Part shown: positions 5,260 to 63,657 of the stretch, in pieces | How positions within the stretch are numbered: position 1 is the stretch's first letter | How the letters are laid out: the number at the start of each line of letters is the position of its first letter | Assembly: GCA_020051175.1 (NCBI GenBank) | Contig: JAGVJJ010000042.1 | Span: 26,720-90,719 of the forward strand | Direction of reading: 5' to 3' | DNA length: 64,000 bases | Origin: Bacteroidia bacterium | Lineage (GTDB): Bacteria > Bacteroidota > Bacteroidia > 2-12-FULL-35-15 | The notes under the pieces: model-generated | The model's input: only the letters and a program-made list of their open reading frames with translations | Told to the model about the DNA's origin: nothing | The model's database searches: none | Position numbers and translations under genes: made by a program

Positions 5260-5297
5260 CAGATTCACAGATACCGGATAATAAATCTGTGAATCTG
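5260..5297. promoter_or_regulatory. Perfect 13-bp inverted repeat CAGATTCACAGAT-N12-ATCTGTGAATCTG (candidate operator or hairpin)
   Basis: Read directly: left arm 5260-5272, right arm 5285-5297, in the divergent promoter region 48 nt upstream of ATG 5345. The same 13-mer recurs at 6155-6167. Confidence 0.5.
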
Positions 5298-5344: not shown

Positions 5345-6136
5345 ATGTATAAAAATCCTTTTCAAAAACCGGGTGATATTATACAGGAAAACCACTTTCT
5401 GTATGTGCGCGTCATTGCTTTCGTTTGTTTCTTTGGACACGGGCTGGTTTCACTGGATATAAGCCCTGGTTATCAATTACATTACAATATCTTTTCAGCA
5501 GTCAACTTTTTTGGGCTGGATGCACATTTTTTTCTAAGATTGCTGGCTGCATTTGATATCTGTATGGCTTTTCTTTTTTTATTCAATGTAAAATTGGTCT
5601 ATATCATACCGGTTATTCTTTCTTACCTTTTTATGGTGGGACTTGCAGGCGGTATTTTTTACATGAAAAAAACGGGAGGCTTTTTTGGTATATCTGAATT
5701 TTTCAGACGGCTTCCCTGGATGTTTACTGTGCTTTTTGTTTGGTTTAAGTTAAAAAAAGAAAAGGACTATTTCTTTTTGCTCCGTACAGGACTAGCTTTT
5801 GCGTTTATTGCTCATGGCCTTTCATCGCTTGAATTTCTTGGCTTGCGGGGTGGGCATATTGAGCTGGCTTCTCAAATCATGACTTCAGATTCTGCTACCA
5901 AATTTGTGTACTGCAGTGGCTTTTCGGATACAGTTATAGGGCTGTTGCTAATTACCGGTCTTTTCTCACGCTGGGCCGCGGCTATAGGATGCCTCTGGCT
6001 GGTTTTTATTGTCTACCTGTCGTTTCTCACGGGATTGCCAGAAGGCATATTCAGAACAGGTTTTTTATTGATCTGTCTTTATGTTGCAGTTGATAAACGT
6101 TGTCATCAATGGAAAAATTCAGGAAAAAGCATCTGA
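5345..6136 (+). CDS. Polytopic inner-membrane protein, function unknown
   Basis: 263-aa ORF with an ATG start and about 8 hydrophobic segments (FVCFFGHGLVSL, LAAFDICMAFLFLF, IIPVILSYLFMVGLAGGIF, and others). No motif I recognise. Confidence 0.7.
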   Translation: MYKNPFQKPGDIIQENHFLYVRVIAFVCFFGHGLVSLDISPGYQLHYNIFSAVNFFGLDAHFFLRLLAAFDICMAFLFLFNVKLVYIIPVILSYLFMVGLAGGIFYMKKTGGFFGISEFFRRLPWMFTVLFVWFKLKKEKDYFFLLRTGLAFAFIAHGLSSLEFLGLRGGHIELASQIMTSDSATKFVYCSGFSDTVIGLLLITGLFSRWAAAIGCLWLVFIVYLSFLTGLPEGIFRTGFLLICLYVAVDKRCHQWKNSGKSI

Positions 6137-6152: not shown

Positions 6153-6168
6153 CACAGATTCACAGATT
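6153..6168. repeat. Tandem octamer CACAGATT x2 just after a stop codon (contains the 13-mer of the 5260 inverted repeat)
   Basis: cacagattcacagatt lies 17 nt after the TGA at 6134-6136. Confidence 0.6.
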
Positions 6169-6196: not shown

Positions 6197-6469
6197 TTAT
6201 TTTTTTAGCACATCAGGTAAATTTTCTTTTGTGAGCTCACCTTTACCGATTTTCAATAAAAACACATTTTTACCGGTCATTAAATCTTCGTGCATTTCTT
6301 TTCGGAGTGCCTCCATCAGCACATCGTATTCTCCAAAAAGCTGGGTACTTAGCCCATTCACTTCGGCCCGGATACCAGGATACTTTTTTACACGCTGTAT
6401 AAAACCAATAATCTTATTGGCATAATCATCAGTAAGAGCGTACATACTTATTTCTATGGTTGCGAGCAT
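6197..6469 (-). CDS. Small conserved protein, tentatively YkoF/MTH1187-like (ACT-fold, thiamine/HMP-binding family)
   Basis: 90-aa ORF with an ATG start. IEISMYALTDDYANKIIGFIQRV...T.LFGEYDVLMEAL resembles the YkoF-type pattern. Weak, memory-based assignment. Confidence 0.5.
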   Translation of the reverse strand: MLATIEISMYALTDDYANKIIGFIQRVKKYPGIRAEVNGLSTQLFGEYDVLMEALRKEMHEDLMTGKNVFLLKIGKGELTKENLPDVLKK

Positions 6470-6477
6470 ATGAAGAG

Positions 6478-6667
6478 GGTTATTGGGTATTGGGTGTTAT
6501 TGGGTTATTGGTTATTGGTTATTGGTTATTGGTTATTGGTTATTGGGTTATTGGGTTATTGATTTATTAATTATTAAGTTTTGGTACCTTAGTTAACTGC
6601 TAACTTAATAATCAACAGCGTTAACTGTTAACCAATAACTAATAACTGTTAACTAATAACTGATAAC
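6478..6667. repeat. Heptamer-word imperfect palindrome: (TTATTGG)n left arm, (AACTAAT/ACCAATA)n right arm
   Basis: About a dozen tandem TTATTGG-type heptamers occupy 6478-6578, the centre is near GGTACC at 6583-6588, and about ten complementary-type heptamers occupy 6591-6667. The last word overlaps the cyclophilin stop codon. Contains no ORF. A twin lies at 46026-46175. Confidence 0.85.
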
Positions 6668-7314
6668 TACTTATTTAGTTCCGCAAATACTTTCGCAGCT
6701 TTAAATTTCTTTGCTGCCCGGCCTTTGCGGATAATTTTAACTTTAACAATTGTATCGCCTTGCTGAATCGAATCCACAACATCCTGTCCGGTTATAACAT
6801 GACCAAAAATGGTATGCTTCATGTTTAACCATGGAGTAGCTACGTGAGTAATAAAAAACTGGCTGCCATTGGTTCTTGGACCGGCATTTGCCATTGCTAA
6901 AATACCAGGGCCGGTGAATTGCATGTCGCTAAAGCATTCATCTTTAAAAGCATATCCTGGTCCGCCCATACCAGTTCCCTGTGGGTCACCACCCTGGATC
7001 ATAAATTTAGGAATAACCCGATGAAATTTTAAACCATCGTAAAATGGAGTACCTTCCGGTTTTGCACTGTTTTTAATTTTTCCTTCGGCCAAACCCACAA
7101 AATTGGCAACTGTTAAAGGTGTTTTTTCCATCTCCAGCTTTACCAATATTTTACCCCGGCTGGTTTCTATTTCGGCATACAGGCCCTTTTCCAGCTTGGG
7201 CTTTTTTTCTTTAACAAGTATTACCGGCTTTGTGGTTACATGAAGCGGGTTACCAGCATAGGTGGTAAGATTAACAAATAAAAAGAGGCTTAAAACAAAC
7301 AGTATTCTTTTCAT
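6667..7314 (-). CDS. Peptidyl-prolyl cis-trans isomerase, cyclophilin type, secreted/periplasmic
   Basis: FHRVIPKFMIQGGDPQGTGMGGPGY.FKDE, LAMANAGPRTNGSQFFITHV and HTIFGHV are canonical cyclophilin motifs. Signal peptide: MKRILFVLSLFLFVNLTTYA. Confidence 0.95.
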   Translation of the reverse strand: MKRILFVLSLFLFVNLTTYAGNPLHVTTKPVILVKEKKPKLEKGLYAEIETSRGKILVKLEMEKTPLTVANFVGLAEGKIKNSAKPEGTPFYDGLKFHRVIPKFMIQGGDPQGTGMGGPGYAFKDECFSDMQFTGPGILAMANAGPRTNGSQFFITHVATPWLNMKHTIFGHVITGQDVVDSIQQGDTIVKVKIIRKGRAAKKFKAAKVFAELNK

Positions 7315-9643: not shown

Positions 9644-9652
9644 ATGTTCCAC

Positions 9653-9720
9653 GTTTCAAGTTGCAAGTTTAAAGTTGTATTTAAGCAATAACGGAAACTT
9701 GAAACCTGAAACTTTCAAGT
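9653..9720. repeat. Heptamer-word imperfect inverted repeat (GTTTCAA/GTTGCAA/GTTTAAA vs AAACTTG/AAACCTG/AAACTTT)
   Basis: gtttcaagttgcaagtttaaagttg (9653-9677) and aaacttgaaacctgaaactttcaagt (9695-9720) lie 10 nt after the E1 stop and 7 nt before the nth start. Possible terminator-like hairpin. Confidence 0.7.
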
Positions 9721-9726
9721 AAAGAA

Positions 9727-10374
9727 ATGACAAAAAAAGAACGCTTCGAAAAAGTAATTGGCTATTTCAGTGAGCATCAGCCAATTGCGGAAACAGAACT
9801 GAACTATAATAACCCTTATCAATTACTAGTGGCGGTTATCCTTTCGGCCCAATGCACTGATAAGCGGGTGAATATGATTACGCCTGCCCTTTTCAAAGCT
9901 TTTCCTGAGCCGGAAGTGCTGGCAGCTGCCAGCAGCGATGAAGTGTTTCAGTACATCAAAAGTATCAGTTACCCAAATAACAAGGCAAAACATCTTGTGG
10001 GGATGGCCAACATGCTCATTGATGAGTTTGGTGGCGTTATTCCTTCGGAAGTAAATGAGCTTGTGAAACTGCCCGGAGTGGGTCGCAAAACGGCCAATGT
10101 GATTGCTTCTGTGATTTATGATCAACCGACCATGGCGGTGGATACCCACGTATTCAGGGTAGCAGCCCGCCTGGGACTTACCACCAATTCAAAAACGCCA
10201 CTAGATACTGAAAAACAGCTGGTTAAATACATACCTACCGATAAAGTTGCCATTTCCCATCATTGGCTTATTCTTCATGGTCGTTATATTTGTGTGGCGC
10301 GTACACCCAAGTGCGAAATTTGTCCGCTGACCGCTTTTTGTAAGTATTATGAGAAGGTTAGGATTAAGATGTGA
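9727..10374 (+). CDS. nth: Endonuclease III (DNA-(apurinic/apyrimidinic site) lyase)
   Basis: HhH-GPD motif LPGVGRKTANVI, catalytic region AVDTHVFRV, and C-terminal 4Fe-4S cluster C-X6-C-X2-C-X5-C (CVARTPKCEICPLTAFC). Confidence 0.95.
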   Translation: MTKKERFEKVIGYFSEHQPIAETELNYNNPYQLLVAVILSAQCTDKRVNMITPALFKAFPEPEVLAAASSDEVFQYIKSISYPNNKAKHLVGMANMLIDEFGGVIPSEVNELVKLPGVGRKTANVIASVIYDQPTMAVDTHVFRVAARLGLTTNSKTPLDTEKQLVKYIPTDKVAISHHWLILHGRYICVARTPKCEICPLTAFCKYYEKVRIKM

Positions 10375-10395
10375 GATGTGAGATGAGATGTGAGA
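10368..10395. repeat. Tandem heptamer GATGTGA array overlapping the nth stop codon (left arm of a split inverted repeat)
   Basis: gatgtga gatgtga gatga gatgtga gac. The nth TGA (10372-10374) lies inside the first word. The partner is at 10671-10694. Confidence 0.75.
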
Positions 10396-10670
10396 CATAA
10401 GATTTGAAACGTTAGAAGTGAGCCAAGAGCCAGGGGTTGAAAATTGAAAGACACTTAGAGTCTTTGCGTCTTTGTGCCCAATTTTAAACTTACACATGCC
10501 TGTCCACAGTCTTCGAGCAGGCCCAGTTCCGATAGCTATAGAACACAACACACGACCACCTTTAATTTATAATCCACCTTGGTAATTTTCCAATCACTAA
10601 TTTCAAGAGCATTCGCAATTCAATGGTTAACAACACATTACAAACAAACTTATATGTGCTGCATCCCAAA

Positions 10671-10694
10671 TCCCATATCTCATATCTCACATCT
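10671..10694. repeat. Right arm (TCCCATATCTCATATCTCACATCT) complementary to the GATGTGA array
   Basis: The reverse complement AGATGTGAGATATGAGATATGGGA matches the array at 10368-10395. The arms bracket about 275 nt of ORF-free, hairpin-rich sequence. Confidence 0.7.
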
Positions 10695-10767: not shown

Positions 10768-13593
10768 ATGAAACAGAAAGCTACTTCAATTTTATCAGCA
10801 TTTTTTATTGGTTTGACATTGCTGTCCTTTCACTCGGCAAACGCCCAGCAGTCGGTAAGTGGTACAGTAAAAGATTTTAAAACCAACGAAGCGCTCTTTG
10901 GGGCAACAGTGGTGGTGAAGGGAACAACTGAGGGTGGCGCAACGGATATGGATGGGAACTTTAAGTTCAATACAACTGCTACTCCCCCGTTAACACTGGT
11001 AATTTCTTATCTTGGATACATTACTTTTGAGCAAACAGTAAGCTCGCTGGATAAACCCATATCTGCTAAAATAAAGCCAAACGAAACATTATTGAAAGAG
11101 GTGGAAGTTGTGGGCGACAGGATTACAGAAAAACAAAAAGAGTCTCCTCTTACCATTGAAGCCTTAGATGTACTCGCCATCAAAGAAACCCCGGCAGCCA
11201 ACTTTTATGAAGGTTTAGGACAGCTGAAAGGAGTGGATATCATTGCTGCCAGTATTGGTTTCAGGGTAGTAAACACACGTGGTTTCAATAGCACATCGCC
11301 CGTAAGGTCCTTGCAGATAATTGACAATGTGGATAACCAGTCGCCCGGGCTGAACTTTTCGCTGGGTAACTTTTTGGGCTCATCGGAACTGGATGTACAA
11401 AAAGTAGAAATCATTGTAGGCGCCAGTTCTGCTTACTATGGTCCAAACGCGTTTAACGGTGTGGTAAGCATGACTACTAAAAATCCGTTTATCAAACCAG
11501 GAATTTCTGCATTTGTTAAGGTTGGGGAGCGTAATATGCTGGAAACAGCAGTACGTTATGCCGAAGTATTTAAAAATAAAGCAGGAGAAGACAAGCTGGC
11601 TTTTAAACTGAACTTGTCGTACATGCGTGCCAATGACTGGGAAGCAGATAATCTGGATCCTGTTTACCAATCTGCAGACGGTAAAAGCAACCCTGGCGGG
11701 TATGATGCAGTTAACCGCTATGGTGATGAGAATTTAACAAGCGGGCAAAACAATGCGACCAGCAATGGACAGCAGATACAGTATCCTGGATTAAAACGCT
11801 GGTATAGAACTGGTTACGAAGAAAAAGATCTTGTAGATTACAATACCAAAAACCTGAAAGTTGCTGCTGCAGTACATTACCGCATCAAACCGGAAACAGA
11901 ATTAATTTATGCTTTTAGTCTTGGTTCAGGCACCACTGTTTACCAGGGAGATAACCGATACAGCCTCCGTGATATCTTGTTTTACCAGAACCGTATTGAG
12001 CTGCAAAAAAAGGATAAGTACTTTATACGTTTTTACAATACCCAGGAAGACGCAGGCCGTTCTTACGATGCTGTATTTACAGCTTTCCAGCTTCAGAACA
12101 GGTCAAAAAACAATGGGGACTGGGGAAGAGATTACCGTAATTTCTGGGCCGGAGCAGTACCGAATACAACACCGAACTGGTCGCAGGGAGGTATGAGCAA
12201 AAATGTAAAGGATTTGCCTGGTTTTCCTACACAGGGTGGCCCTCCTGATTATTATTATGATTATGCCCAGGCCGATGCAGTTATGGCCCAATATTCTGAT
12301 TCCTTAATGCTATGGCACTCCTATGCGCGGGGGTATGCTGACAACAACCGCCTAGTCCCTGGAACCCAAGCCTTTAAAGATGCTTTTGAAGAAATTACCT
12401 CCAAAGCTACTTATGGTGAAGGTGGAACCCGTTTGCTGGATCGTTCTGCATTGTACCATGTGCATGGAGAATACAAATTCACTCCAACCATTATGGACAT
12501 TACAATTGGTGGAAACGGAAGGCTGTATACACCTAATTCCAGCGGTACCGTGTTCAGCGATACAGGAAATGTAAAAATTACCAATTATGAATATGGTATT
12601 TATGCCGGTATTGAGAAAAAGATAATGGAAGAAAAGTTCAAGTTCAACCTGACCACACGTGTAGATAAAAATCAGAACTTCAACTTTGTGGTTTCCCCTG
12701 CAGCATCTGTTGTTTATAACATCAACAAGAAAAACATTCTTCGTTTGTCTTTCTCATCCGCTGTGCGTAACCCAACACTGGCTGACCAGTACCTGTACTA
12801 CAATGTAGGAAGGGCAATACTTATAGGGAACGTAGATGGTTTTGATTCGCTTGTAACCATCGAATCTATTAGAGATTACTACAGTGTGGCGCTCCCGCAA
12901 AAAAGCTCTCTTGTGTATTTTGATGTAGACCCGGTACGTCCGGAAAAAGTAAAATCGGCAGAAATAGGTTACCGCACTACATTGTTTGAGAATTTGTTTT
13001 TTGATGGAAGCTGCTATTATAGCTACTATACCGACTTTATTGGTTATAAACTTGGAGGTGATGTAAGCTTCGCAGCTCCACCGCTGGATAACAACATTAA
13101 CGGTATTACCTTTTACAGGGTAGCAGCAAATGCTGACAATGCAGTAACTTCGCAAGGCGCTTCTGTCGGGCTTACCTATTATTTCAGAAAATTCTTTTCC
13201 ATCAATGGGAACTATTCATATAATACACTGAATAAAAAAGGTTCCGATGATCCTATTATTCCAGCCTTTAACACGCCTAAACACAAGTTTAATATTGGTG
13301 TAAGTGGCAGGGAGATTACTTCATCTTTCAAACCACTTAACAATACCGGATTCAGCATTAACTACCGCTGGGTAGAAGGCTTCCTGTTTGAAGGCTCACC
13401 ACAGTTTACGGGCTATGTTCCTACTTATGACATGGTAGATGTTCAGATAAGCAAATATGTCCCTAAAATCCACAGCACTTTTAAACTGGGGGCTTCCAAC
13501 CTGCTTAACAATAAAACCTACCAGGTATATGGCGGACCAAGAATAGGCCGTATGGTTTATTTTTCCGTTCTGTTTGAGTTGGATAAGAATTAG
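10768..13593 (+). CDS. TonB-dependent outer-membrane receptor with N-terminal carboxypeptidase-regulatory-like domain
   Basis: ATG 10768 gives the signal peptide MKQKATSILSAFFIGLTLLSFHSANAQ. SGTVKD..T.E.L.GATVVVKGTTEGGATDMDGNFKF is the CarbopepD_reg-like domain. A plug region follows (EALDVLAIKETPAANFYEGLGQLKGV), and the protein ends in a beta-barrel (...GRMVYFSVLFELDKN). The 63 codons upstream in the track ORF cover the repeat element. Confidence 0.9.
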   Translation: MKQKATSILSAFFIGLTLLSFHSANAQQSVSGTVKDFKTNEALFGATVVVKGTTEGGATDMDGNFKFNTTATPPLTLVISYLGYITFEQTVSSLDKPISAKIKPNETLLKEVEVVGDRITEKQKESPLTIEALDVLAIKETPAANFYEGLGQLKGVDIIAASIGFRVVNTRGFNSTSPVRSLQIIDNVDNQSPGLNFSLGNFLGSSELDVQKVEIIVGASSAYYGPNAFNGVVSMTTKNPFIKPGISAFVKVGERNMLETAVRYAEVFKNKAGEDKLAFKLNLSYMRANDWEADNLDPVYQSADGKSNPGGYDAVNRYGDENLTSGQNNATSNGQQIQYPGLKRWYRTGYEEKDLVDYNTKNLKVAAAVHYRIKPETELIYAFSLGSGTTVYQGDNRYSLRDILFYQNRIELQKKDKYFIRFYNTQEDAGRSYDAVFTAFQLQNRSKNNGDWGRDYRNFWAGAVPNTTPNWSQGGMSKNVKDLPGFPTQGGPPDYYYDYAQADAVMAQYSDSLMLWHSYARGYADNNRLVPGTQAFKDAFEEITSKATYGEGGTRLLDRSALYHVHGEYKFTPTIMDITIGGNGRLYTPNSSGTVFSDTGNVKITNYEYGIYAGIEKKIMEEKFKFNLTTRVDKNQNFNFVVSPAASVVYNINKKNILRLSFSSAVRNPTLADQYLYYNVGRAILIGNVDGFDSLVTIESIRDYYSVALPQKSSLVYFDVDPVRPEKVKSAEIGYRTTLFENLFFDGSCYYSYYTDFIGYKLGGDVSFAAPPLDNNINGITFYRVAANADNAVTSQGASVGLTYYFRKFFSINGNYSYNTLNKKGSDDPIIPAFNTPKHKFNIGVSGREITSSFKPLNNTGFSINYRWVEGFLFEGSPQFTGYVPTYDMVDVQISKYVPKIHSTFKLGASNLLNNKTYQVYGGPRIGRMVYFSVLFELDKN

Positions 13594-13762
13594 TTCATTG
13601 GTTCATTGGTTCACTGGTTTATTGGTTATCAGTTATTGGTTATTAAGTGACAATAGACAATAAGCAATAAACAGTTGGGCAGTTGGCAGTTGGGCAGTTG
13701 GGCAGTTGGCAATAAAGTAATTGTACAACTAAACTAATGAACCAATGAACTAGTGAACTAAC
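13593..13762. repeat. Nested word-repeat palindrome: GTTCATTG-type arms enclosing (CAGTTGG(G))x5
   Basis: The left arm gttcattggttcattggttcactgg starts on the last base of the TAG stop. The right arm ctaatgaaccaatgaactagtgaactaac ends at 13762. The interior holds TTATTGG words, gacaatagacaataagcaataa and five CAGTTGG(G) copies (13672-13710). Confidence 0.85.
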
Positions 13763-17154: not shown

Positions 17155-17203
17155 TGGGAAGTCAGAAGTTAGAAGATAAGAAGGTTAACTTAATTTTTTT
17201 ACT

Positions 17204-45887: not shown

Positions 45888-46025
45888 ACTTTATCTATTG
45901 GATTGCAAAATTGCGGAAAAAAAAAGGAAGATATTTACAGATAAAACTACAAAGTTTACATTCTGAAGTTATTCCTTAATAATGGGAAGAAGGCTGATTT
46001 ACAAGCTGAGAATTCAGGTCTATCT

Positions 46026-46175
46026 TTATTGGTTATCTGTTATTGGTTATTGGTTATTGGTTATCTGTTATCTGTTATCTGTTATCTGCTATCTGTTATC
46101 TGTTATGGATTATTAGAGTTAACTAATAGCCAATAAACTAATAACTAATAACTAATAACCAATAACTAATAACAG
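46026..46175. repeat. Heptamer-word imperfect palindrome, same family as 6478-6667: (TTATTGG/TTATCTG)n vs (AACTAAT/ACCAATA)n
   Basis: The left arm (46026-46108) is a tandem array of TTATTGG and TTATCTG words. The right arm (46118-46175) is an array of AACTAAT/AACCAAT words. It lies 15 nt beyond the stop of the upstream (minus-strand) gene at 46191. Contains no ORF. Confidence 0.85.
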
Positions 46176-46190
46176 TCAACACATAATCCA

Positions 46191-47633
46191 CTACGGCCTG
46201 ACAGAAACAGAATAGGGATCTACAGAGACTTCAACCTTCTTGTCGTTTACACCTTCTTTTACAAGGCTGAGTGTATTCATATCAATAAAGGTTATATATC
46301 CGTTTCGGCCGGCACAAACACTTGAATGGTGAGGTACGGGTCCATCCTGCGTAGCATTGCGGTTTGCCACATATACCATGTTTTTCGAGTCGTCAGCAGC
46401 AAGCCCGTGCGGTTGATGACCGGTATAAATTGTTTTTACCAGCGTATTGGAACTCATATTGATTACGGCAATGGAACCTGTTTTGCCGGGAAAAGAAGTA
46501 ACGTCTTCCATGCAGCTTACAAACAGGTAATCAGAAGCTGCAGAAACAGTCATTTCAGAAGGCATGGCCCCTACCGGTATTACAGCCAGTAATTGATCTG
46601 TTCCTTGTTGAAAAATACGCAATTCGGAAGTACCCTGGCAGGTAACAAAATATTTGCTTCCATCGGGCGAAAATAGAACTTCATGTGGTTTAAGCGCACT
46701 GGCAGGTGGTGATGAAAACAAATCGATTTCAACAAATGACGAAAAATCACTTACTGGTAATTTATACATTTTGCTTCCCTCCTGCTGTGTCACATACAAT
46801 GTATCCCCAGCGGGATTAAGACAAGAGCCATGAGGAAAATTAAATCCTGCATTGTGTTCAACCGTAAGCGAATTTAAATCAACAATTGCAATATCACCTG
46901 TAGCGCTCCAATCCACAACGTAAGCCTTTTGCCCGTCATTGCTGATGGTTAAAGTATTCCAGTAATGAACACCAAGTATGGCTTCACCCACAAAACCATC
47001 ATCGCTGGTGCGGTACTTTTGAAGGGAATTGCCATTCAATGAAATTACGTACCAGTACTGCCCGTCTGGCGAAACCTTAATCATGTGTGGTGCTTCTATA
47101 CCTCCCGTATTGCCGGCATCAATGTACCGCATGGGCAATAATGTTTCCTGGTCAAGTACTGTAACTACATCACAGCCCTGGTTAACCACATATATTTTTT
47201 TCCGGTTAGGGTTATCAGCAAATTTAATATTCCCTTCCCTATCTGGTGCTCCGTTGGCAATCCATTGTTTGATCATCACTACTTCCTCACGTGACAAGGG
47301 TTCCTTATTAAAAGGCATGGTTGGCACATGTGCAAGGCCCAGATCAGAAAAAGTATTTGTATAGGTAAAAAAAGAACTGTACTCAGGCCGGAATGGAATA
47401 ACCGCTGCACTTCCTGTACCTCCCTCAAACAATTTGTCCCAGCTTTCCATCGATATCCCTGCAGCGGCAGCTTTGCTGGCATCTGTATGACAGCCGGGAG
47501 TGGCGCATTTTGTAAAAACAAGCTTACCTATGTCATTGGGATATTTGTTGTAATCAGGTATGCCTTTGTCGCGGCTACAGCCAGTAACAAACAAAACAAA
47601 GACAAATAGATAAAAAAAAGGATATTTTTCCAT
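46191..47633 (-). CDS. Lipoprotein: N-terminal cytochrome-c-like (PSCyt-like) module with CX4CH + YVTN-type beta-propeller
   Basis: ATG 47633 gives MEKYPFFYLFVFVLFVTGCSRD (lipobox). LVFTKCATPGCHTD...GG.GSAAVIPFRPE.S resembles planctomycete-type cytochrome c domains. The rest has YVTN/LVIVD-like blade repeats (IYVVNQGCDVVTV, YVVDWSATGDIAIVDL, LYVTQQEGSKMY, MVYVANRN). Confidence 0.7.
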   Translation of the reverse strand: MEKYPFFYLFVFVLFVTGCSRDKGIPDYNKYPNDIGKLVFTKCATPGCHTDASKAAAAGISMESWDKLFEGGTGSAAVIPFRPEYSSFFTYTNTFSDLGLAHVPTMPFNKEPLSREEVVMIKQWIANGAPDREGNIKFADNPNRKKIYVVNQGCDVVTVLDQETLLPMRYIDAGNTGGIEAPHMIKVSPDGQYWYVISLNGNSLQKYRTSDDGFVGEAILGVHYWNTLTISNDGQKAYVVDWSATGDIAIVDLNSLTVEHNAGFNFPHGSCLNPAGDTLYVTQQEGSKMYKLPVSDFSSFVEIDLFSSPPASALKPHEVLFSPDGSKYFVTCQGTSELRIFQQGTDQLLAVIPVGAMPSEMTVSAASDYLFVSCMEDVTSFPGKTGSIAVINMSSNTLVKTIYTGHQPHGLAADDSKNMVYVANRNATQDGPVPHHSSVCAGRNGYITFIDMNTLSLVKEGVNDKKVEVSVDPYSVSVRP

Positions 47634-47725
47634 CACAAAATCACCACATCAACAACTATTGTAGATGTATATAAAGATAATCAATTTAAATGAAAAAAGT
47701 AAATTCATTCATTTAAAACTGCCAG

Positions 47726-47744
47726 GACAATACCTGACAATACC
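47726..47744. repeat. Tandem word (T)GACAATACC x2 just downstream of a minus-strand stop codon
   Basis: gacaatacctgacaatacc lies 22 nt beyond the stop at 47766-47768. Confidence 0.5.
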
Positions 47745-48208: not shown

Positions 48209-48244
48209 TCAACCTTAAACTTTAAACCTTCAACCCTTCAACGG
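48209..48244. repeat. Tandem heptamers (TTnAACC x5) spanning the stop codon of the sigma-54 activator gene
   Basis: atcaacc ttaaact ttaaacc ttcaacc cttcaac gg. On the coding (minus) strand this reads CCG TTG AAG GGT TGA AGGTTTAAAGTTTAAGGTTGAT, so the last four codons and the stop are part of the array. No inverted partner seen. Confidence 0.7.
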
Positions 48245-49396
48245 CCTGGCATAGGCAATCACATCTTTATCCGTAATGGTTTTATCACATAAAATAATCA
48301 ACCGTTCTACAACGTTTCTGAACTCGCGTATATTGCCGGTCCAGTTCAATTTCTGGAGTTCTTTTATCGCATCTTTTGTAAACGACTTAAGCGGCATACC
48401 ATAATCCTCGCAAACCAGCTTCAAAAAATGTTCTGCCAGAAGTGGAATATCTTCTTTCCGCTCATTCAATGATGGCACATGAATAAGGATAACACTTAGA
48501 CGGTGGTACAAGTCTTCACGGAAATTGCCATTGGCAATTTCTTTTTGCAAATCTTTATTTGTTGCAGCCACTACACGCACGTTTACTTTTATTTCTTTCT
48601 CGCCCCCAACGCGTGTGATTTTATTTTCCTGTAAGGCGCGCAATACTTTTGCCTGGGCCGGCAAACTCATGTCCCCTATTTCGTCCAAAAAGAGCGTTCC
48701 TCCTTCGGCTTGTTCAAATTTACCTTTTCGCTGGTTTACTGCTGAAGTAAATGCTCCTTTTTCATGCCCAAACAGCTCACTTTCAATTAGTTCACCGGGA
48801 ATGGCAGCACAATTCACCTCTACCAACGGAGCTCCCGAGCGGTGGCTCTTTTCATGCAACCACCTGGCAACCAACTCTTTACCACTCCCATTACCACCGG
48901 TTATCAATACACGGGCATCGGTTGGGGCTACGCGTTCAATCATTTCCTGTATCTGCACAATGGCTTTCGATTCACCAACCATATCGAACGTTTTGCTCAC
49001 TTTCTTCTTCAACACCTTGGTTTCTGTCACTAGGGTAGATTTATCCATCGCATTGCGTAAAGTCACCAGCAACCTATTCAAATCCAGCGGTTTAGCAATA
49101 AAATCAAACGCGCCTTTTTTTACTGCTTCTACCGCTGTTTCAATGGTTCCATGTCCGGAGATCATTACCACAGGAGTATCTGCCGAAAGCTGCATCACTT
49201 TATCAAGCAATTCAATACCATCCATTTTTGGCATTTTAATATCGCACAATATCATGTCAAATTTACCTTTTTGGATCATCCCAAGTCCCTCAACACCATC
49301 TGCGGCCTCTTCTACCTGGTATTTTTCATATTCAAGGATTTCACGTAATGTTTTACGGATGCTTTTTTCATCGTCAATTATCAGTACTTTCTTCAT
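48230..49396 (-). CDS. Sigma-54-dependent response regulator (REC + AAA+ activator) lacking a C-terminal HTH domain
   Basis: REC domain: VLIIDDEKSIR, DMILCDIKMPKMDGIELL, GAFDFIAKP. AAA+ domain: Walker A GGNGSGKE, ESELFGHEKGAFTSA (GAFTGA variant), Walker B LFLDEIGDM, R-finger region FREDLYHRL. The protein ends right after the AAA+ lid at aa 388. Confidence 0.9.
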   Translation of the reverse strand: MKKVLIIDDEKSIRKTLREILEYEKYQVEEAADGVEGLGMIQKGKFDMILCDIKMPKMDGIELLDKVMQLSADTPVVMISGHGTIETAVEAVKKGAFDFIAKPLDLNRLLVTLRNAMDKSTLVTETKVLKKKVSKTFDMVGESKAIVQIQEMIERVAPTDARVLITGGNGSGKELVARWLHEKSHRSGAPLVEVNCAAIPGELIESELFGHEKGAFTSAVNQRKGKFEQAEGGTLFLDEIGDMSLPAQAKVLRALQENKITRVGGEKEIKVNVRVVAATNKDLQKEIANGNFREDLYHRLSVILIHVPSLNERKEDIPLLAEHFLKLVCEDYGMPLKSFTKDAIKELQKLNWTGNIREFRNVVERLIILCDKTITDKDVIAYARPLKG

Positions 49397-52246: not shown

Positions 52247-53116
52247 ATGAAAAAACCATTACTTATCCTTACATGTCTTATGTTTGGTGCAGCTAGTGTA
52301 AACGCTCAGTTTACTGGCTTTACCGGATTTTCCGGTTTCTCAGGGTTCAGTGGCAGCAGTGGCGCTACCAGTTCCAGCGGAACAAGTGGCACAAGCGGGA
52401 CAAGTGGTACCAGTGGAACAAGCGGAACAAGCGGAACAAGTGGTACAAGTGGCACCAGTGGGTTTTCTGGCTTTTCAGGTTTTTCCGGGTTCTCAGGTTT
52501 TTCTGGCTTTTCGGGAACTTCAGGTACTTCAGGCACTTCAGGTACTTCAGGCACCAGTGGTACAAGCGGTACAAGCGGATTCTCCGGCTTTACAGGTTTC
52601 ACTGGTTTTACCGGCTTTACAGGTTTCAGCGGTTCATCCGGCAGTTCAGGAACATCTGGTACAAGTGGGTTTACAGGATTTAGCGGTTCGAGTGGCTCTA
52701 CAGGTTCAACAGGGTCAAGCGGATTTACAGGGTTTACCGGCTCAACGGGCTCATCCGGATTTACAGGATTTACAGGAAGCACAGGTTCTACCGGCTTTAC
52801 CGGTTCCAGCGGAATGACTGGTACTTCCGGGATGACAGGTAATACAGGCACTGCTATCATGGATGTAAAAGAAGCCAGTAACTTTGTGGTGGTGTTCCCG
52901 AATCCCGCATCTAATTTCATAAATTTCAAATACCTTACAGAGGCAAGCCAGATCGAAATTTATGATATAACCGGACGTTTAGCTGGCACTTATTCCGTAA
53001 CCAGTGAAACAGTGAATATTTCCACAACATCATTTGAACCGGGAACGTATTTTTATACTGTTTTAAATAATAAAAAGTCCTACATCGGAAAGGGTAAAAT
53101 ACTGATTATCAAATAA
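52247..53116 (+). CDS. T9SS-secreted collagen-like protein: ~58 G-(F/T/S)-(S/T) triplets + C-terminal sorting domain
   Basis: Signal peptide [21 protein letters not shown]. Residues 24-198 are almost pure GFS/GFT/GTS/GSS/GST triplets. C-terminal T9SS domain: [14 protein letters not shown]...[10 protein letters not shown]. Confidence 0.85.
52316..52840 (+). repeat. Coding 9-nt (triplet-of-codons) tandem repeat tract of the collagen-like gene
   Basis: Runs of ggcttttca/ggtttctca (GFS), ggaacaagc/ggtacaagt (GTS) and ggctttaca (GFT). It generates spurious long ORFs in other frames and on the opposite strand. Confidence 0.9.
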
Positions 53117-54376: not shown

Positions 54377-56251
<1,875 letters not shown>

Positions 56252-59200: not shown

Positions 59201-60475
59201 TAAGCCTTCTATTCCTAAAACATTTTTATTATTTGATGAAGGAACAACAATTTCGGAGTAATTGGCAAAAATACCTGCATTGATACTGGCACCATAGTTT
59301 GCCGAAGGAGAATATGTTATTTGTGTATTCATTCCTCCAGCAGTCCACGAACCAGGAATAGACGTATTTGTTCTTACTAAATGCATGGGTGTTGAAGGAC
59401 TGGTTGTTCCGAAACCAACATTCCCACTTGCATCTTCGAAGATAGGTGCAGTTGTACAGATTGCAGCCGTGCCATCCGATTTCATTATATAATTTGCCGA
59501 AGCACAACCTACGGGCCCTGTAGCACCTGTTGAACCCGTGCTTCCGGTTGGGCTTGTAGTACCCGTTGCTCCCGTACTTCCGGTTGAACCGGTATTGCTT
59601 GTTGCGCCCGTGCTCCCAGTTGAGCCAGTATTACTTGTAGCACCTGTGCTGCCCGTTGAACCAGTACTGCTTGTTACACCAGTGCTTCCGGTTGAGCCAG
59701 TATTTGATGTTGCTCCCGTACTTCCGGTTGAGCCTGTATCTCCTATTTGTCCTGTACTACCCGTTGAACCGGTATTGCTTGTTACGCCCGTGCTTCCTGT
59801 TGAACCGGTATTACTAGTTGCTCCGGTACTTCCGGTTGAGCCTGTATCTCCTATTTGTCCTGTACTACCCGTTGAACCGGTATTGCTTGTTGCTCCCGTG
59901 CTTCCGGTTGAACCAGTATTACTTGTTGCTCCGGTACTTCCGGTTGAACCGGTATCTCCTATTAATCCTGTACTACCCGTTGAACCAGTATTACTTGTTG
60001 CTCCCGTACTTCCTGTTGCGCCTGTTGAACTTGTCGCACCGGTATTTCCTGTTACACCTGTATCTCCTGTTCTACCCGTTACACCAATAGTTCCGGTTGG
60101 GCCAGTTACACCGGTAGTTCCGGTAGAACCTGTATTGGCTGTTGCACCCGTAGAACCTGTGCTTCCTGTTGCCCCGTTAATTCCTAAACCACCTGCAACC
60201 GACTGCCAATAAGTGCCATTGAAATAATAGAATGTATTATTTGTGGTGAGGTAAATCAATAGTCCTGTTGCAGGAGAAGATACGGCATTCGTATCCGCAA
60301 TACGGGGTGCAAGAAACCCTTTATCGGCAGACGTAAGATCCAGTAATGAGCTTGAATGAGGATTTATGGTTCCAATGCCTACGTTGTTTTGAGCATAAGC
60401 TTTATGAAAACCAAACTGCCAAATATCTGAGAAGCAAATTAAATAACAAGCTAAATAAATTATTCTTGAGTTCAT
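56288..60475 (-). CDS. Secreted tail-fibre-like protein 2 (1395 aa): conserved head, ~74 collagen-type triplet positions, long VGIGT-motif body, peptidase-S74 domain, coiled coil
   Basis: Head: [35 protein letters not shown]...[26 protein letters not shown]-rich region at aa 101-322. Junction: [41 protein letters not shown]. Eight (N/S/D/Q)VG(I/V/F/L)GT..P motifs. S74: [10 protein letters not shown]...NPVTYNW...[15 protein letters not shown]. The last ~60 aa are coiled coil ([12 protein letters not shown]...RLEG). Confidence 0.9.
56786..56959 (-). other. Peptidase S74 intramolecular chaperone domain of protein 2
   Basis: [58 protein letters not shown]. The Ser codon is at 56957-56959 (plus-strand cga). 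Confidence 0.8.
59510..60175 (-). repeat. Collagen-like coding repeat with 36-nt and 108-nt higher-order periodicity
   Basis: The 12-aa unit [12 protein letters not shown] sits within a 36-aa unit (..[36 protein letters not shown]). The string ccggttgagcctgtatctcctatttgtcctgtactacccgttgaaccggtattgcttgtt starts at both 59724 and 59832 (offset 108). Confidence 0.9.

Positions 60476-60528: not shown

Positions 60529-63657
<3,129 letters not shown>

What the first reader, a model, noticed from the sequence alone, without database searches (positions are those of the whole stretch)
6478..6667. 190-nt palindrome built entirely from the 7-nt word TTATTGG and its complement; prototype of a word-repeat element family that starts at stop codons
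Between the cyclophilin stop (the last word overlaps it) and the next gene's start there are about a dozen tandem TTATTGG-type heptamers. A centre near GGTACC (6583-6588) follows, then about ten complementary-type heptamers (AACTAAT/ACCAATA/AACTGTT). The transcript could therefore fold into a very long imperfect hairpin made of 7-nt words. The same word and layout recur at 46026-46175. Differently worded relatives occur at 9653-9720 (GTTTCAA), 10368-10694 (GATGTGA), 13593-13762 (GTTCATTG and CAGTTGG), 17157-17200 (GAAGTTA), 47726-47744, 48209-48244 (GTTGAAG/GTTTAAA) and 5260-5297/6153-6168 (CAGATTCA). All begin within ~20 nt of, or inside, a stop codon. They are not CRISPR, because there are no unique spacers. 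They are not a classical REP/BIME or single MITE family either, because the word changes from locus to locus, and no transposase or RAYT gene is nearby. Canonical compact terminators also exist in the window (27312, 41828, 53134), so these are a second, distinct kind of gene-end structure. I do not recall this class being described.
Basis: partly seen in the sequence, partly recalled or inferred. Interest (0 to 1): 0.6.

Follow-up and report, generated by a model that had tools for sequence, protein, structure and literature searches.

The report
Heptamer-armed hairpin between two operon genes
The 190-base palindrome is real; it is one of about 124 fast-changing hairpin or array elements built from 7-base repeats that fill gene-to-gene gaps in this Bacteroidota genome, apparently a gene-less relative of cassettes carrying a small four-helix-bundle gene, and it does not look like a terminator.

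Summary
At 6477-6561 there are about 11 GGTTATT units. At 6622-6668 there are about 7 TAACTGA/TAACTAA/TAACCAA units. Together they run from the TAG stop of a cyclophilin gene to 9 nt before the ATG of a conserved 90-aa ORF, both on the minus strand.

It is one of 124 period-7/8 loci in this 4.05-Mb genome, about 90% of them intergenic. All 22 paired loci have the G/T-rich arm first and the A/C-rich arm second. G/T arms abut stop codons and A/C arms abut start codons.

In related species the same junction is either empty (stop, 2 nt, ATG) or filled with quite different words. So the sequence is not conserved, and a terminator role is unlikely.

All four TIGR02436/PF05635 four-helix-bundle genes of this genome lie inside such heptad arms, each with its own word. 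The same holds for 24 of 26 loci in the genus and 19 of 29 across the phylum. Deletion intermediates occur, and the genome-wide abundance of a word tracks presence of the cassette that carries it.

Heptamer repeats in Bacteroidetes were already described (MacGregor 2015). I did not find the paired layout or the gene link in the searchable literature. This scan has noted the same class before on other DNA, including elsewhere in this genome.

The parts
6622..6669 (-). 5' arm on the sense (minus) strand. It holds about 7 units reading TAGTTAT/CAGTTAT/TAGTTAA/TGGTTAA (plus strand TAACTGA/TAACTAA/TAACCAA). Its first unit contains the cyclophilin TAG stop.
   Evidence: sense-strand print of L006.
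6562..6621 (.). Central part and loop of the palindrome. It is AT-rich with GGTACC at 6583-6588. It holds no ORF and no PF05635 remnant.
   Evidence: tblastn with the five PF05635 proteins, E up to 10, finds no hit here.
6477..6561 (-). 3' arm on the sense strand. It holds about 11 units of AATAACC(C) (plus strand GGTTATT) and ends 9 nt before the ATG of the next gene.
6667..7314 (-). Cyclophilin-type peptidyl-prolyl isomerase, the upstream gene.
   Evidence: PF00160, E 3.5e-43; orthologues in 26 of 30 relatives.
6197..6469 (-). Conserved 90-aa ORF of unknown function, the downstream gene.
   Evidence: 58-73% identity in 11 same-genus loci, same position after cyclophilin; no Pfam or NCBIfam hit.
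46021..46173 (-). Second palindrome of the same word family: TTATTGG/TTATCTG x12, then TAACTAA/TAACCAA x7.6. On the minus strand it starts 17 nt after the stop of ORF 46191-47636.
   Evidence: z -8.8 / -6.3.
9644..9720 (+). Stop-to-start heptad hairpin (GTTTCAA/GTTGCAA ... GAAACTT/GAAACCT) between the E1 dehydrogenase gene and the endonuclease III gene.
   Evidence: The word family is the same as the arms of this genome's PF05635 gene at C79.
10367..10694 (+). GAGATGT arm (10367-10422), a loop of about 250 nt, then an ATCTCAT arm (10670-10694), between the endonuclease III gene and the TonB-dependent receptor gene.
   Evidence: The word family is the same as the arms of the PF05635 gene at C62. 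No gene remnant was detected in the loop.
13589..13761 (+). Nested element: outer arms GTTCATTG x5 (13589-13644) and CAATGAAC-type (13732-13761), with an inner unpaired CAGTTGGG x5 array (13672-13709).
   Evidence: z -7.7 / -7.3.
48209..48244 (-). Single G/T-rich arm (GTTGAAG/GTTTAAA x5 on the minus strand) overlapping the stop of ORF 48230-49396. It has no partner arm.

Best explanation
The palindrome is a gene-less member of a family of fold-back elements. Each has two arms made of tandem 7-nt (sometimes 8-nt) units. A G/T-rich arm (here GTTATNN) comes first and its A/C-rich complement (NNATAAC) second.

Complete versions of the family carry one small gene in the loop. It encodes a 120-145-aa TIGR02436/PF05635 four-helix-bundle protein, of the same family as the ORF found in 23S rRNA intervening sequences and related to the Avd protein of diversity-generating retroelements. 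These cassettes sit in the same orientation as their hosts, exactly between the stop of one operon gene and the start of the next.

Shown here:
- The elements occupy junctions that are only 0-6 nt long when empty.
- The arms change quickly, including by 7-nt insertions and deletions.
- The gene can be lost by internal deletion, leaving a hairpin or a single arm.
- Arrays with a given word are abundant in genomes that hold a cassette with that word.

Inferred:
- The 6477-6669 element is either such a decayed cassette or a copy spread in trans. It carries the GTTAT/ATAAC word of this genome's cassette at contig C26:121737-122174.
- In the polycistronic mRNA the two arms pair, so the insert folds out between the cyclophilin stop and the next start. 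By analogy with rRNA intervening sequences it may be cut by RNase III.
- The A/C-rich, G-poor arm next to the ATG resembles the native A-rich, G-poor leaders of this Shine-Dalgarno-poor genome. That would explain why only the G/T-first order survives.

On this reading the element is a tolerated selfish or neutral insert, not a terminator.
For: 1. Family and layout. There are 124 period-7/8 loci, 12 of them at contig ends. All 22 paired loci have the G/T arm first (binomial p 5e-7). The G/T-at-stop versus A/C-at-start split gives Fisher p 7e-8.

2. Gene link in this genome. There are five PF05635 hits. Four are TIGR02436-type and each is bracketed stop-to-start by complementary heptad arms with its own word: GAGATNT, GTTTCAG, CAGTTGG and GTTATNN. 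The fifth is a DGR Avd next to a reverse transcriptase and has no arms. All four words recur as gene-less arrays in the window.

3. Gene link beyond this genome. PF05635 is present in 40 of 41 genomes of the genus. Flanks are complementary (z > 4) at 24 of 26 loci, and period 7 is the best period in 48 of 52 flanks. Across the phylum the figures are 19 of 29 loci and period 7 or 8 in 50 of 58 flanks, with the upstream flank G > C in 28 of 29.

4. Gain, loss and decay at one junction. In 30 genomes the fadB-like to thiolase junction is empty (3-6 nt) in 6 and holds a cassette in 9. It holds internally deleted cassettes with gene remnants in L066 and L084, and gene-less hairpins or single arms of related words in L059, L063, L076 and L081. 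The next junction shows the same series, including the decayed cassette L072.

5. The cyclophilin junction. It reads TAA-AA-ATG or TAA-AC-ATG in two relatives. In nine others it is 48-334 nt with unrelated words.

6. Arms travel with the gene. Protein clades share a word family across different junctions: L049 with L031/L038/L040 and the own C26 gene, and L041 with the SufB-SufC clade.

7. Word abundance follows the cassette. GTATCAR windows number 72, 18, 59, 104 and 28 in genomes with that cassette, against 4, 7, 22, 11 and 0 without. GAGATRT windows number 107, 68, 65, 127 and 31 with, against 4, 33, 3, 4 and 20 without.

8. Arms evolve faster than the gene. Between L057 and L058 the gene is 98.6% identical, while the 5' arm carries 7-nt and 11-nt indels.

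9. Leader composition. Native leaders at -20 to -1 are 39-41% A and 12-13% G.
Against: - This locus has no gene remnant in its loop.
- None of the 11 other relatives whose cyclophilin-to-ORF junction could be read has a PF05635 gene at that junction.
- Loops of gene-less copies share no conserved core.
- No target-site duplication is visible.
- No transposition enzyme or mechanism is known for these cassettes.
- Replication slippage alone can make heptamer arrays; Mrazek 2007, as summarised in PMC4679880, proposed this.
- Several word families in this genome (GAAGTCC, TGAACCAG, AATTGGAG) have no matching cassette, although the assembly is only 82% complete.
- The word-versus-cassette comparisons use 5 versus 5 related genomes and are not phylogenetically independent. 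Two cassette-free genomes still hold 20-33 GAGATRT windows.
- One relative shows the reverse arm order (L083).
- At this locus the antisense strand folds better than the sense strand.
Confidence: 0.6

Rival explanations
1. The arrays are pure mutational by-products. Heptamer arrays arise in place by replication slippage, and the inverted partner arises and is kept similar by template switching within quasi-palindromes. The four-helix-bundle genes are merely trapped in, or prefer to insert into, such hairpins. The arrays have no dedicated function and no mobility.
For: - Every species has a different word at the cyclophilin junction.
- Loops are not conserved and there is no target-site duplication.
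- Copy numbers range from 3 to 34 with a long tail.
- Indels come in 7-nt steps.
- Many loci are single arrays (97 of 124).
- There is no sense-strand folding bias.
- Heptamers are the commonest long simple repeats in many bacteria (Mrazek 2007, as cited in PMC4679880).
Against: - All 22 paired loci share one arm order. Symmetric slippage and template switching do not predict that.
- Arms run exactly from stop to start.
- Word families follow protein clades across different junctions.
- Word abundance follows cassette presence.
- Deletion intermediates with gene remnants exist.
Confidence: 0.2
2. The arrays are cis-regulatory RNA sites. An RNA-binding protein or the ribosome recognises the tandem A/C-rich units just upstream of start codons and tunes translation. 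This is MacGregor's proposal for TAACTGA repeats. The paired arm would modulate access to the site.
For: - A/C-rich arrays end a median of 9.5 nt before start codons.
- Their composition resembles native A-rich, G-poor leaders.
- MacGregor 2015 reports the same position in Beggiatoaceae and in Flexibacter litoralis.
Against: - The word differs between loci and between species at the same gene, and some orthologous junctions have no array at all. No conserved regulon or binding word is therefore apparent.
- Arrays also occur next to stops in convergent spacers.
- Arm position is largely explained by the ancestral spacer being only 0-6 nt long.
Confidence: 0.12
3. One reading: a second class of gene-end structure that acts as a transcription terminator or as a 3' stabiliser of the upstream mRNA.
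For: - G/T-rich arms start at or within stop codons.
- Long hairpins are predicted.
Against: - The elements lie inside operons whose downstream genes need read-through (fad, suf and infC-rpmI junctions).
- Stems are AT-rich, lack a T-tract and are not picked up by the terminator scan.
- They are not enriched in convergent spacers.
- Neither sequence nor presence is conserved in sister species.
- The sense strand does not fold better than the antisense.
Confidence: 0.06

Closest known systems
Intergenic TAACTGA and mixed heptamer direct repeats of Beggiatoaceae, Cyanobacteria and some Bacteroidetes (MacGregor 2015, PMC4679880), and heptanucleotide long simple sequence repeats (Mrazek 2007, as cited there)
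   Same: - Tandem 7-nt units, almost all intergenic.
- The same word type: TRF consensus TAACTGA at 6622-6668, and TAAC-core words genome-wide.
- The A/C-rich reading lies just upstream of start codons.
- Long mixed arrays occur in Bacteroidetes, and close relatives lack them at the same spacer.
   Different: - That paper treats direct repeats of a single word and reports only one indirect repeat in its main genome.
- Here the unit is a pair of complementary arms with a fixed order that fills the spacer from stop to start.
- Many word families coexist in one genome.
- The arms bracket TIGR02436 genes, a link not made in that paper.
23S rRNA intervening sequences that carry a PF05635 'S23p' ORF (Coxiella burnetii, Warrier 2016, PMC4990558; Leptospira, from my own knowledge)
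   Same: - A small PF05635 gene sits in the loop of a long stem formed by terminal inverted repeats.
- The element is inserted in a transcribed region and co-transcribed with the host.
- The authors regard it as a selfish element. Its ORF tends to decay, and it is acquired horizontally and then kept vertically.
   Different: - The host site here is an mRNA operon junction, not rRNA helix 45 or 25.
- The stems here are tandem heptads.
- The locus under study has no ORF.
- RNase III excision is shown for Coxiella but is untested here.
REP/REPIN elements with RAYT (Y1) transposases, and MITEs
   Same: Short, non-coding, palindromic, intergenic repeats in many copies, with a plausible gene-carrying parent and gene-less derivatives.
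   Different: - The arms are AT-rich tandem heptads of variable copy number, not a fixed 20-40-nt GC-rich palindrome.
- There is no conserved core and no target-site duplication.
- The two Y1 transposase genes of this genome are flanked by other repeats.
- The candidate partner protein is a four-helix bundle with no known nuclease or transposase activity.
Cyanobacterial STRR heptamers (Mazel 1990, from my own knowledge; not retrievable in the paper library)
   Same: Tandem heptanucleotide repeats in several word families, intergenic and sometimes in inverted orientation.
   Different: The words and the phylum differ. To my knowledge no published link to a gene exists.

Membership tests
Intergenic heptamer direct repeats (TAACTGA type, MacGregor 2015) | Two or more tandem copies of a 7-nt unit, intergenic | tested here: met
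   TRF finds 11.1 and 6.7 copies of period 7 in the spacer between two ORFs.
Intergenic heptamer direct repeats (TAACTGA type, MacGregor 2015) | The unit is TAACTGA | tested here: inconclusive
   The array at 6622-6668 has TRF consensus TAACTGA but mixes TAACTGT, TAACCAA, TAACTAA and TAACTGA. The other arm is AATAACC on the sense strand.
Intergenic heptamer direct repeats (TAACTGA type, MacGregor 2015) | Forward (TAAC-reading) orientation a few nt upstream of a start codon | tested here: met
   The AATAACC array ends 9 nt before the ATG at 6469. Genome-wide, 28 of 40 A/C-rich arrays lie within 20 nt of a start.
PF05635/TIGR02436 four-helix-bundle cassette with heptad arms (rRNA-IVS-like) | PF05635 ORF between the arms | tested here: not met
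   The loop at 6562-6621 is 60 nt. tblastn with the five PF05635 proteins of this genome finds nothing here.
PF05635/TIGR02436 four-helix-bundle cassette with heptad arms (rRNA-IVS-like) | G/T-rich heptad arm first and complementary A/C-rich arm second, reaching from the upstream stop to the downstream start | tested here: met
   The layout is the same at the four cassettes of this genome and at 24 of 26 in the genus.
PF05635/TIGR02436 four-helix-bundle cassette with heptad arms (rRNA-IVS-like) | Arm word shared with a gene-carrying copy in the same genome | tested here: met
   The cassette at C26:121737-122174 has GTTATTG/GTTATCT and ATAACAG/ATAACGG arms.
23S rRNA intervening sequence | Inserted in a 23S rRNA helix and excised by RNase III | tested here: not met
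   The element lies between two protein genes. Rfam finds no rRNA or any other family in the window. Excision cannot be tested with these tools.
REP/REPIN-RAYT | The same repeat flanks a Y1 (RAYT) transposase gene in the genome | tested here: not met
   The two PF01797 genes (C75, C104) are flanked by unrelated GC-containing palindromes.
MITE | Terminal inverted repeats with a target-site duplication and a conserved internal sequence | tested here: not met
   The arms are inverted repeats. No duplication is seen when empty and filled junctions are compared, and loops differ between copies.
Intrinsic terminator | Short GC-rich stem followed by a T-tract | tested here: not met
   No terminator-like site is reported within 6470-6680. 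The stems are AT-rich with no T run.
CRISPR array | Direct repeats separated by unique spacers of similar length | tested here: not met
   The units are head-to-tail with no spacers.

The most novel reading that the evidence does not exclude
Heptad-armed hairpins and arrays such as 6477-6669 are the non-autonomous progeny of an unrecognised class of mobile or self-propagating cassettes. Their only gene is a TIGR02436 four-helix-bundle (Avd-like) protein, which recognises its own heptad word. If so, three unexplained things would share one cause: bacterial heptanucleotide repeats (STRR, TAACTGA, long simple sequence repeats), ORF-bearing rRNA intervening sequences, and the widespread 'four helix bundle protein' genes.
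Probability: 0.35. Interest if true: 0.8.

Novelty: new variant of a known kind. Interest (0 to 1): 0.6.

Why it matters
Heptanucleotide repeats are the commonest long simple repeats in many bacteria, yet they have had no accepted origin or role. TIGR02436/PF05635 genes are present in 92 of 121 Bacteroidota genomes sampled here and also have no known function.

This work shows that the repeats are the arms of cassettes carrying these genes. It shows that gene-less hairpins arise from cassettes at the same operon junctions, and that a word's abundance follows the cassette carrying it. Together these turn two descriptive puzzles into one testable hypothesis about a protein and its repeat.

There is also a practical side. 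The arrays break assemblies (12 of the 124 loci lie at contig ends), they inflate operon spacers, and they can be mistaken for terminators or small-RNA genes.

Tried and rejected
- Cyanobacterial origin: rejected. HIP1 (GCGATCGC) occurs once, and the genes are Bacteroidota-type, with a T9SS sorting domain and a CarboxypepD_reg TonB receptor.
- Known RNA family: none in the window at Rfam gathering thresholds.
- Pseudogene remnants of PF05635 in the loops of this genome's gene-less elements: none found by tblastn (E up to 10) or by a custom HMM.
- Selection on the sense RNA, tested through G-U asymmetry: no bias, 7 versus 6 loci.
- RAYT/IS200 partner: two Y1 genes were found, but each has its own unrelated repeats.
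- Target-site duplication: not seen at the three junctions compared.
- Orthologous array in the two closest relatives: not informative, because gene order differs there.
- The search for related loci with a 4-protein alignment failed because no stretch was conserved enough. I used the genome search at phylum level instead.
- Literature searches for a published link between PF05635/TIGR02436 and heptamer repeats found none. The STRR papers are not in the searchable library.

Full report
**What is there.**
The window is part of contig C38 of a 4.05-Mb, 117-contig, 40% GC Bacteroidota assembly that is 82% complete. At 6477-6561 TRF finds 11.1 copies of GGTTATT. At 6622-6668 it finds 6.7 copies of a TAACTGA-type unit. 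An AT-rich centre separates them and contains GGTACC.

Both neighbouring genes are on the minus strand. One is a cyclophilin (6667-7314, PF00160). The other is a 90-aa ORF (6197-6469) that is conserved after cyclophilin in 11 same-genus genomes. Read on the sense strand, the element starts with the cyclophilin TAG stop itself (TAGTTAT CAGTTAT TAGTTAA ...). It ends with AATAACC units 9 nt before the next ATG.

Both strands fold far better than shuffles, with z -7.0 and -6.7. The antisense strand folds better than the sense strand, at -65.1 against -39.7 kcal/mol.

- 46021-46173, 13589-13761, 9644-9720 and 10367-10694 are genuine heptad elements.
- 48209-48244 is a single arm on a stop codon.
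- 17157-17200 and 47726-47744 are marginal.
- 5260-5297 is an ordinary perfect hairpin.

**A genome-wide family with a strict layout.**
Period 7 and period 8 dominate short tandem repeats in this genome. They are almost all intergenic: 100 of 120 period-7 rows and 45 of 46 period-8 rows, where about 14% of the genome is non-coding. Merged, they form 124 loci, and 12 of those lie at contig ends, so long arrays break the assembly.

About half of the words have a TAAC/GTTA core. Other families are GAGATNT, GGCAGTT/CAGTTGG and GTTTCAG.

All 22 loci with two opposed arrays have the G/T-rich arm first and the A/C-rich arm second (binomial p 5e-7). This order reads the same on both strands, so it is a property of the element and not of its orientation.

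In co-directional spacers:
- Single G/T-rich arrays lie a median of 3.5 nt after the upstream stop (18 of 22 within 20 nt).
- Single A/C-rich arrays lie a median of 9.5 nt before the next start (28 of 40 within 20 nt).
- The split gives Fisher p 7e-8.

Divergent and convergent spacers mostly follow the same rule. The loci are spread over spacer types roughly as the spacers themselves are, with convergent spacers somewhat under-represented (8 of 102, against 14% of spacers).

**Comparison with sister species.**
The cyclophilin to 90-aa-ORF junction is conserved in 12 genomes of the genus including this one, with cyclophilin 52-77% identical to ours over the tblastn alignments in the eleven others. 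In two of them the junction is simply TAA-AA-ATG or TAA-AC-ATG. In the other nine relatives it is 48-334 nt long and carries unrelated words, for example CAACCAT x9 abutting the ATG, GGAGTTN with ATTCGTA, GTTTTATTG/CAATAAAAC, and GGTTGTGG/CCACAACC.

So the junction is a hot spot, the sequence is not conserved, and the element is dispensable. This argues against a conserved terminator or a conserved regulatory word.

It also explains 'starts at the stop codon'. The ancestral spacer was about 2 nt long, so any surviving insert must run from stop to start.

**The gene link.**
I tested that independently.

This genome has five PF05635 matches. Four are TIGR02436 'four helix bundle protein' genes, and the nearest solved structure is 2gsc. 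Each of the four sits between the stop of one gene and the start of the next. Each is bracketed by a G/T-rich heptad arm and its complement, and each has a different word: GAGATNT, GTTTCAG, CAGTTGG and GTTATNN. These four words are also among the most frequent array words in the genome, and they are the same four found as gene-less elements in the window.

The fifth match scores best as a DGR Avd. It lies 1 kb from a reverse transcriptase and has no arms.

The four armed proteins are only 27-35% identical to one another, so they are old lineages rather than recent copies.

In the genus, 40 of 41 genomes have such genes. At 24 of 26 fetched loci the two flanks are significantly complementary, and period 7 is the best period in 48 of 52 flanks. 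Across the phylum, 92 of 121 genomes have the gene. At the fetched loci, 19 of 29 show complementary flanks, and 50 of 58 flanks have best period 7 or 8.

**Turnover at two fad-operon junctions.**
In 30 genomes the fadB-like to thiolase junction takes these states:
- empty (3-6 nt) in 6;
- a cassette with GAGATNT/ATCTCAN arms in 9;
- internally deleted cassettes that keep the C-terminal coding remnant in L066 and L084;
- gene-less hairpins or single arms of related words in L059, L063, L076 and L081;
- unrelated GC-rich hairpin pairs in L060 and L062.

The thiolase to acyl-CoA dehydrogenase junction shows the same series, including a decayed cassette with an N-terminal remnant (L072).

In 8 of the 9 cassette-bearing genomes the upstream stop is TAG and forms part of the first heptad. 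Five of the six empty sites use TAA.

Between two genomes whose cassette genes are 98.6% identical, the 5' arm differs by 7-nt and 11-nt indels.

**Do the arms belong to the gene?**
In a tree of 48 proteins, clades follow both junction and arm word. Three times a clade spans different junctions while keeping its word family. The GTTGGTT/GTTGTTA/GTTATNN clade occupies the enoyl-CoA hydratase, Paa and pyrimidine-operon junctions. The AGTTTAA clade occupies SufB-SufC and one other junction.

Matching 20-nt windows per genome (up to 3 mismatches) also follow cassette presence:

| Word | Genomes with that cassette | Genomes without it |
|---|---|---|
| GTATCAR | 72, 18, 59, 104, 28 | 4, 7, 22, 11, 0 |
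| GAGATRT | 107, 68, 65, 127, 31 | 4, 33, 3, 4, 20 |

These genomes are related and the groups are small, so this is suggestive rather than proof.

**How it most likely works.**
Shown:
- The layout of the family.
- The position of the arms at stops and starts.
- Rapid turnover between species.
- Decay from cassette to hairpin at two junctions.
- Co-orientation of the gene with its host operon at every junction examined.

Inferred:
- The 6477-6669 element is a gene-less derivative, or a copy spread in trans, of the GTTAT-word cassette.
- In the operon transcript the arms pair and fold the insert out between stop and start. RNase III processing, as in rRNA intervening sequences (PMC4990558), is possible.
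- The fixed arm order may reflect selection on the leader. Native leaders here are A-rich (39-41%) and G-poor (12-13%), and only the G/T-first order puts an A/C-rich, G-free arm in front of the ATG on either strand.

Against any strong RNA-level selection, sense transcripts fold better than antisense in only 7 of 13 paired loci.

How cassettes reach new junctions is unknown. I found no transposase, no target duplication and no conserved core.

**What is known and what is new.**
MacGregor 2015 (PMC4679880) described tandem TAACTGA and mixed heptamer arrays in Beggiatoaceae, Cyanobacteria and five Bacteroidetes. That paper noted their place just upstream of start codons, their absence from the same spacer in close relatives, and 7-nt indels. 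It proposed translational regulation or a role in rearrangement. The class is therefore not undescribed.

Three things did not turn up in the searchable literature:
- the paired layout with a fixed arm order;
- the stop-to-start fit;
- the tie to TIGR02436 genes.

This scan has noted the same class repeatedly on other DNA, including elsewhere in this genome. I treated those notes as leads and re-tested the gene link here.

**Limits.**
- No transcript or read data were available.
- Gene calls are my own simple ORF model.
- The assembly is incomplete and breaks at long arrays.
- The relatives are not independent samples.

Noticed in passing
G000 contig C31:917-2967 (outside the window): A likely diversity-generating retroelement. 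An Avd-like gene (best NCBIfam hit DivGenRetAVD, 64 bits) lies about 1 kb upstream of a reverse transcriptase (PF00078, E 2.4e-17). It is the only PF05635-like gene in the genome without heptad arms.
   Followed up: partly
G000 contig C62:11682-11856 (outside the window), and loci L057, L058, L060, L062, L064: A second, unrelated kind of junction filler. Pairs of GC-rich hairpins (CCTCCCC..GGGGAGG type, 24 such hairpins in this genome) occupy the same operon junctions that hold heptad cassettes in sister species.
   Followed up: partly
G000 contigs C75:9934-10278 and C104:12279-12578 (outside the window): Two Y1 (IS200/RAYT-like) transposase genes. Each is flanked by several copies of its own palindromic repeat (GCGGCAGAGCCGCGAAACATTTGTAG type and GGTCGGGATTTGCAATCCCGACC type), unrelated to the heptad arrays.
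   Followed up: partly
G000 contig C102:123381-123988 (outside the window): GAGATNT and ATCTCAN heptad arms bracket a hypothetical protein of about 180 aa with a hydrophobic N-terminus, instead of a four-helix-bundle gene. Cargo other than PF05635 may therefore occur.
   Followed up: no
G000 contig C53:33150-33330 (outside the window): TCTCATA/TCTCACA heptad arrays lie inside the 5' end of an ORF and would encode part of a duplicated signal-peptide-like segment (…ILTSHISFLTS… / …ILISHISHLTS…).
   Followed up: no
window 5260-5297 and 6153-6168: A perfect 13-bp hairpin (CAGATTCACAGAT ... ATCTGTGAATCTG) lies upstream of the DoxX-like gene (5345-6136). Two tandem copies of CACAGATT lie just downstream of it. 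The same word brackets this one gene. It is not heptad-built.
   Followed up: partly
window 52374-52777, 55544-55808, 59528-60177, 62615-63363: Long coding repeats with 9/18/27/36-nt periodicity (GGT-NNN-NNN type on one strand). This suggests collagen-like Gly-X-Y or similar repeat proteins.
   Followed up: no
locus L083 (genome G047), fadB-like to thiolase junction: A heptad hairpin with the reverse arm order (CACTAAG units first, CTTAGTG units second). It is the only clear exception seen to the G/T-arm-first rule.
   Followed up: no
G000 contig C56:32589-32964 (outside the window): Ribosomal protein L35 gene (rpmI) has a heptad array before it (TTTAGAA type) and a complete small octamer hairpin after it. 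The elements therefore also sit inside the infC-rpmI-rplT operon.
   Followed up: no
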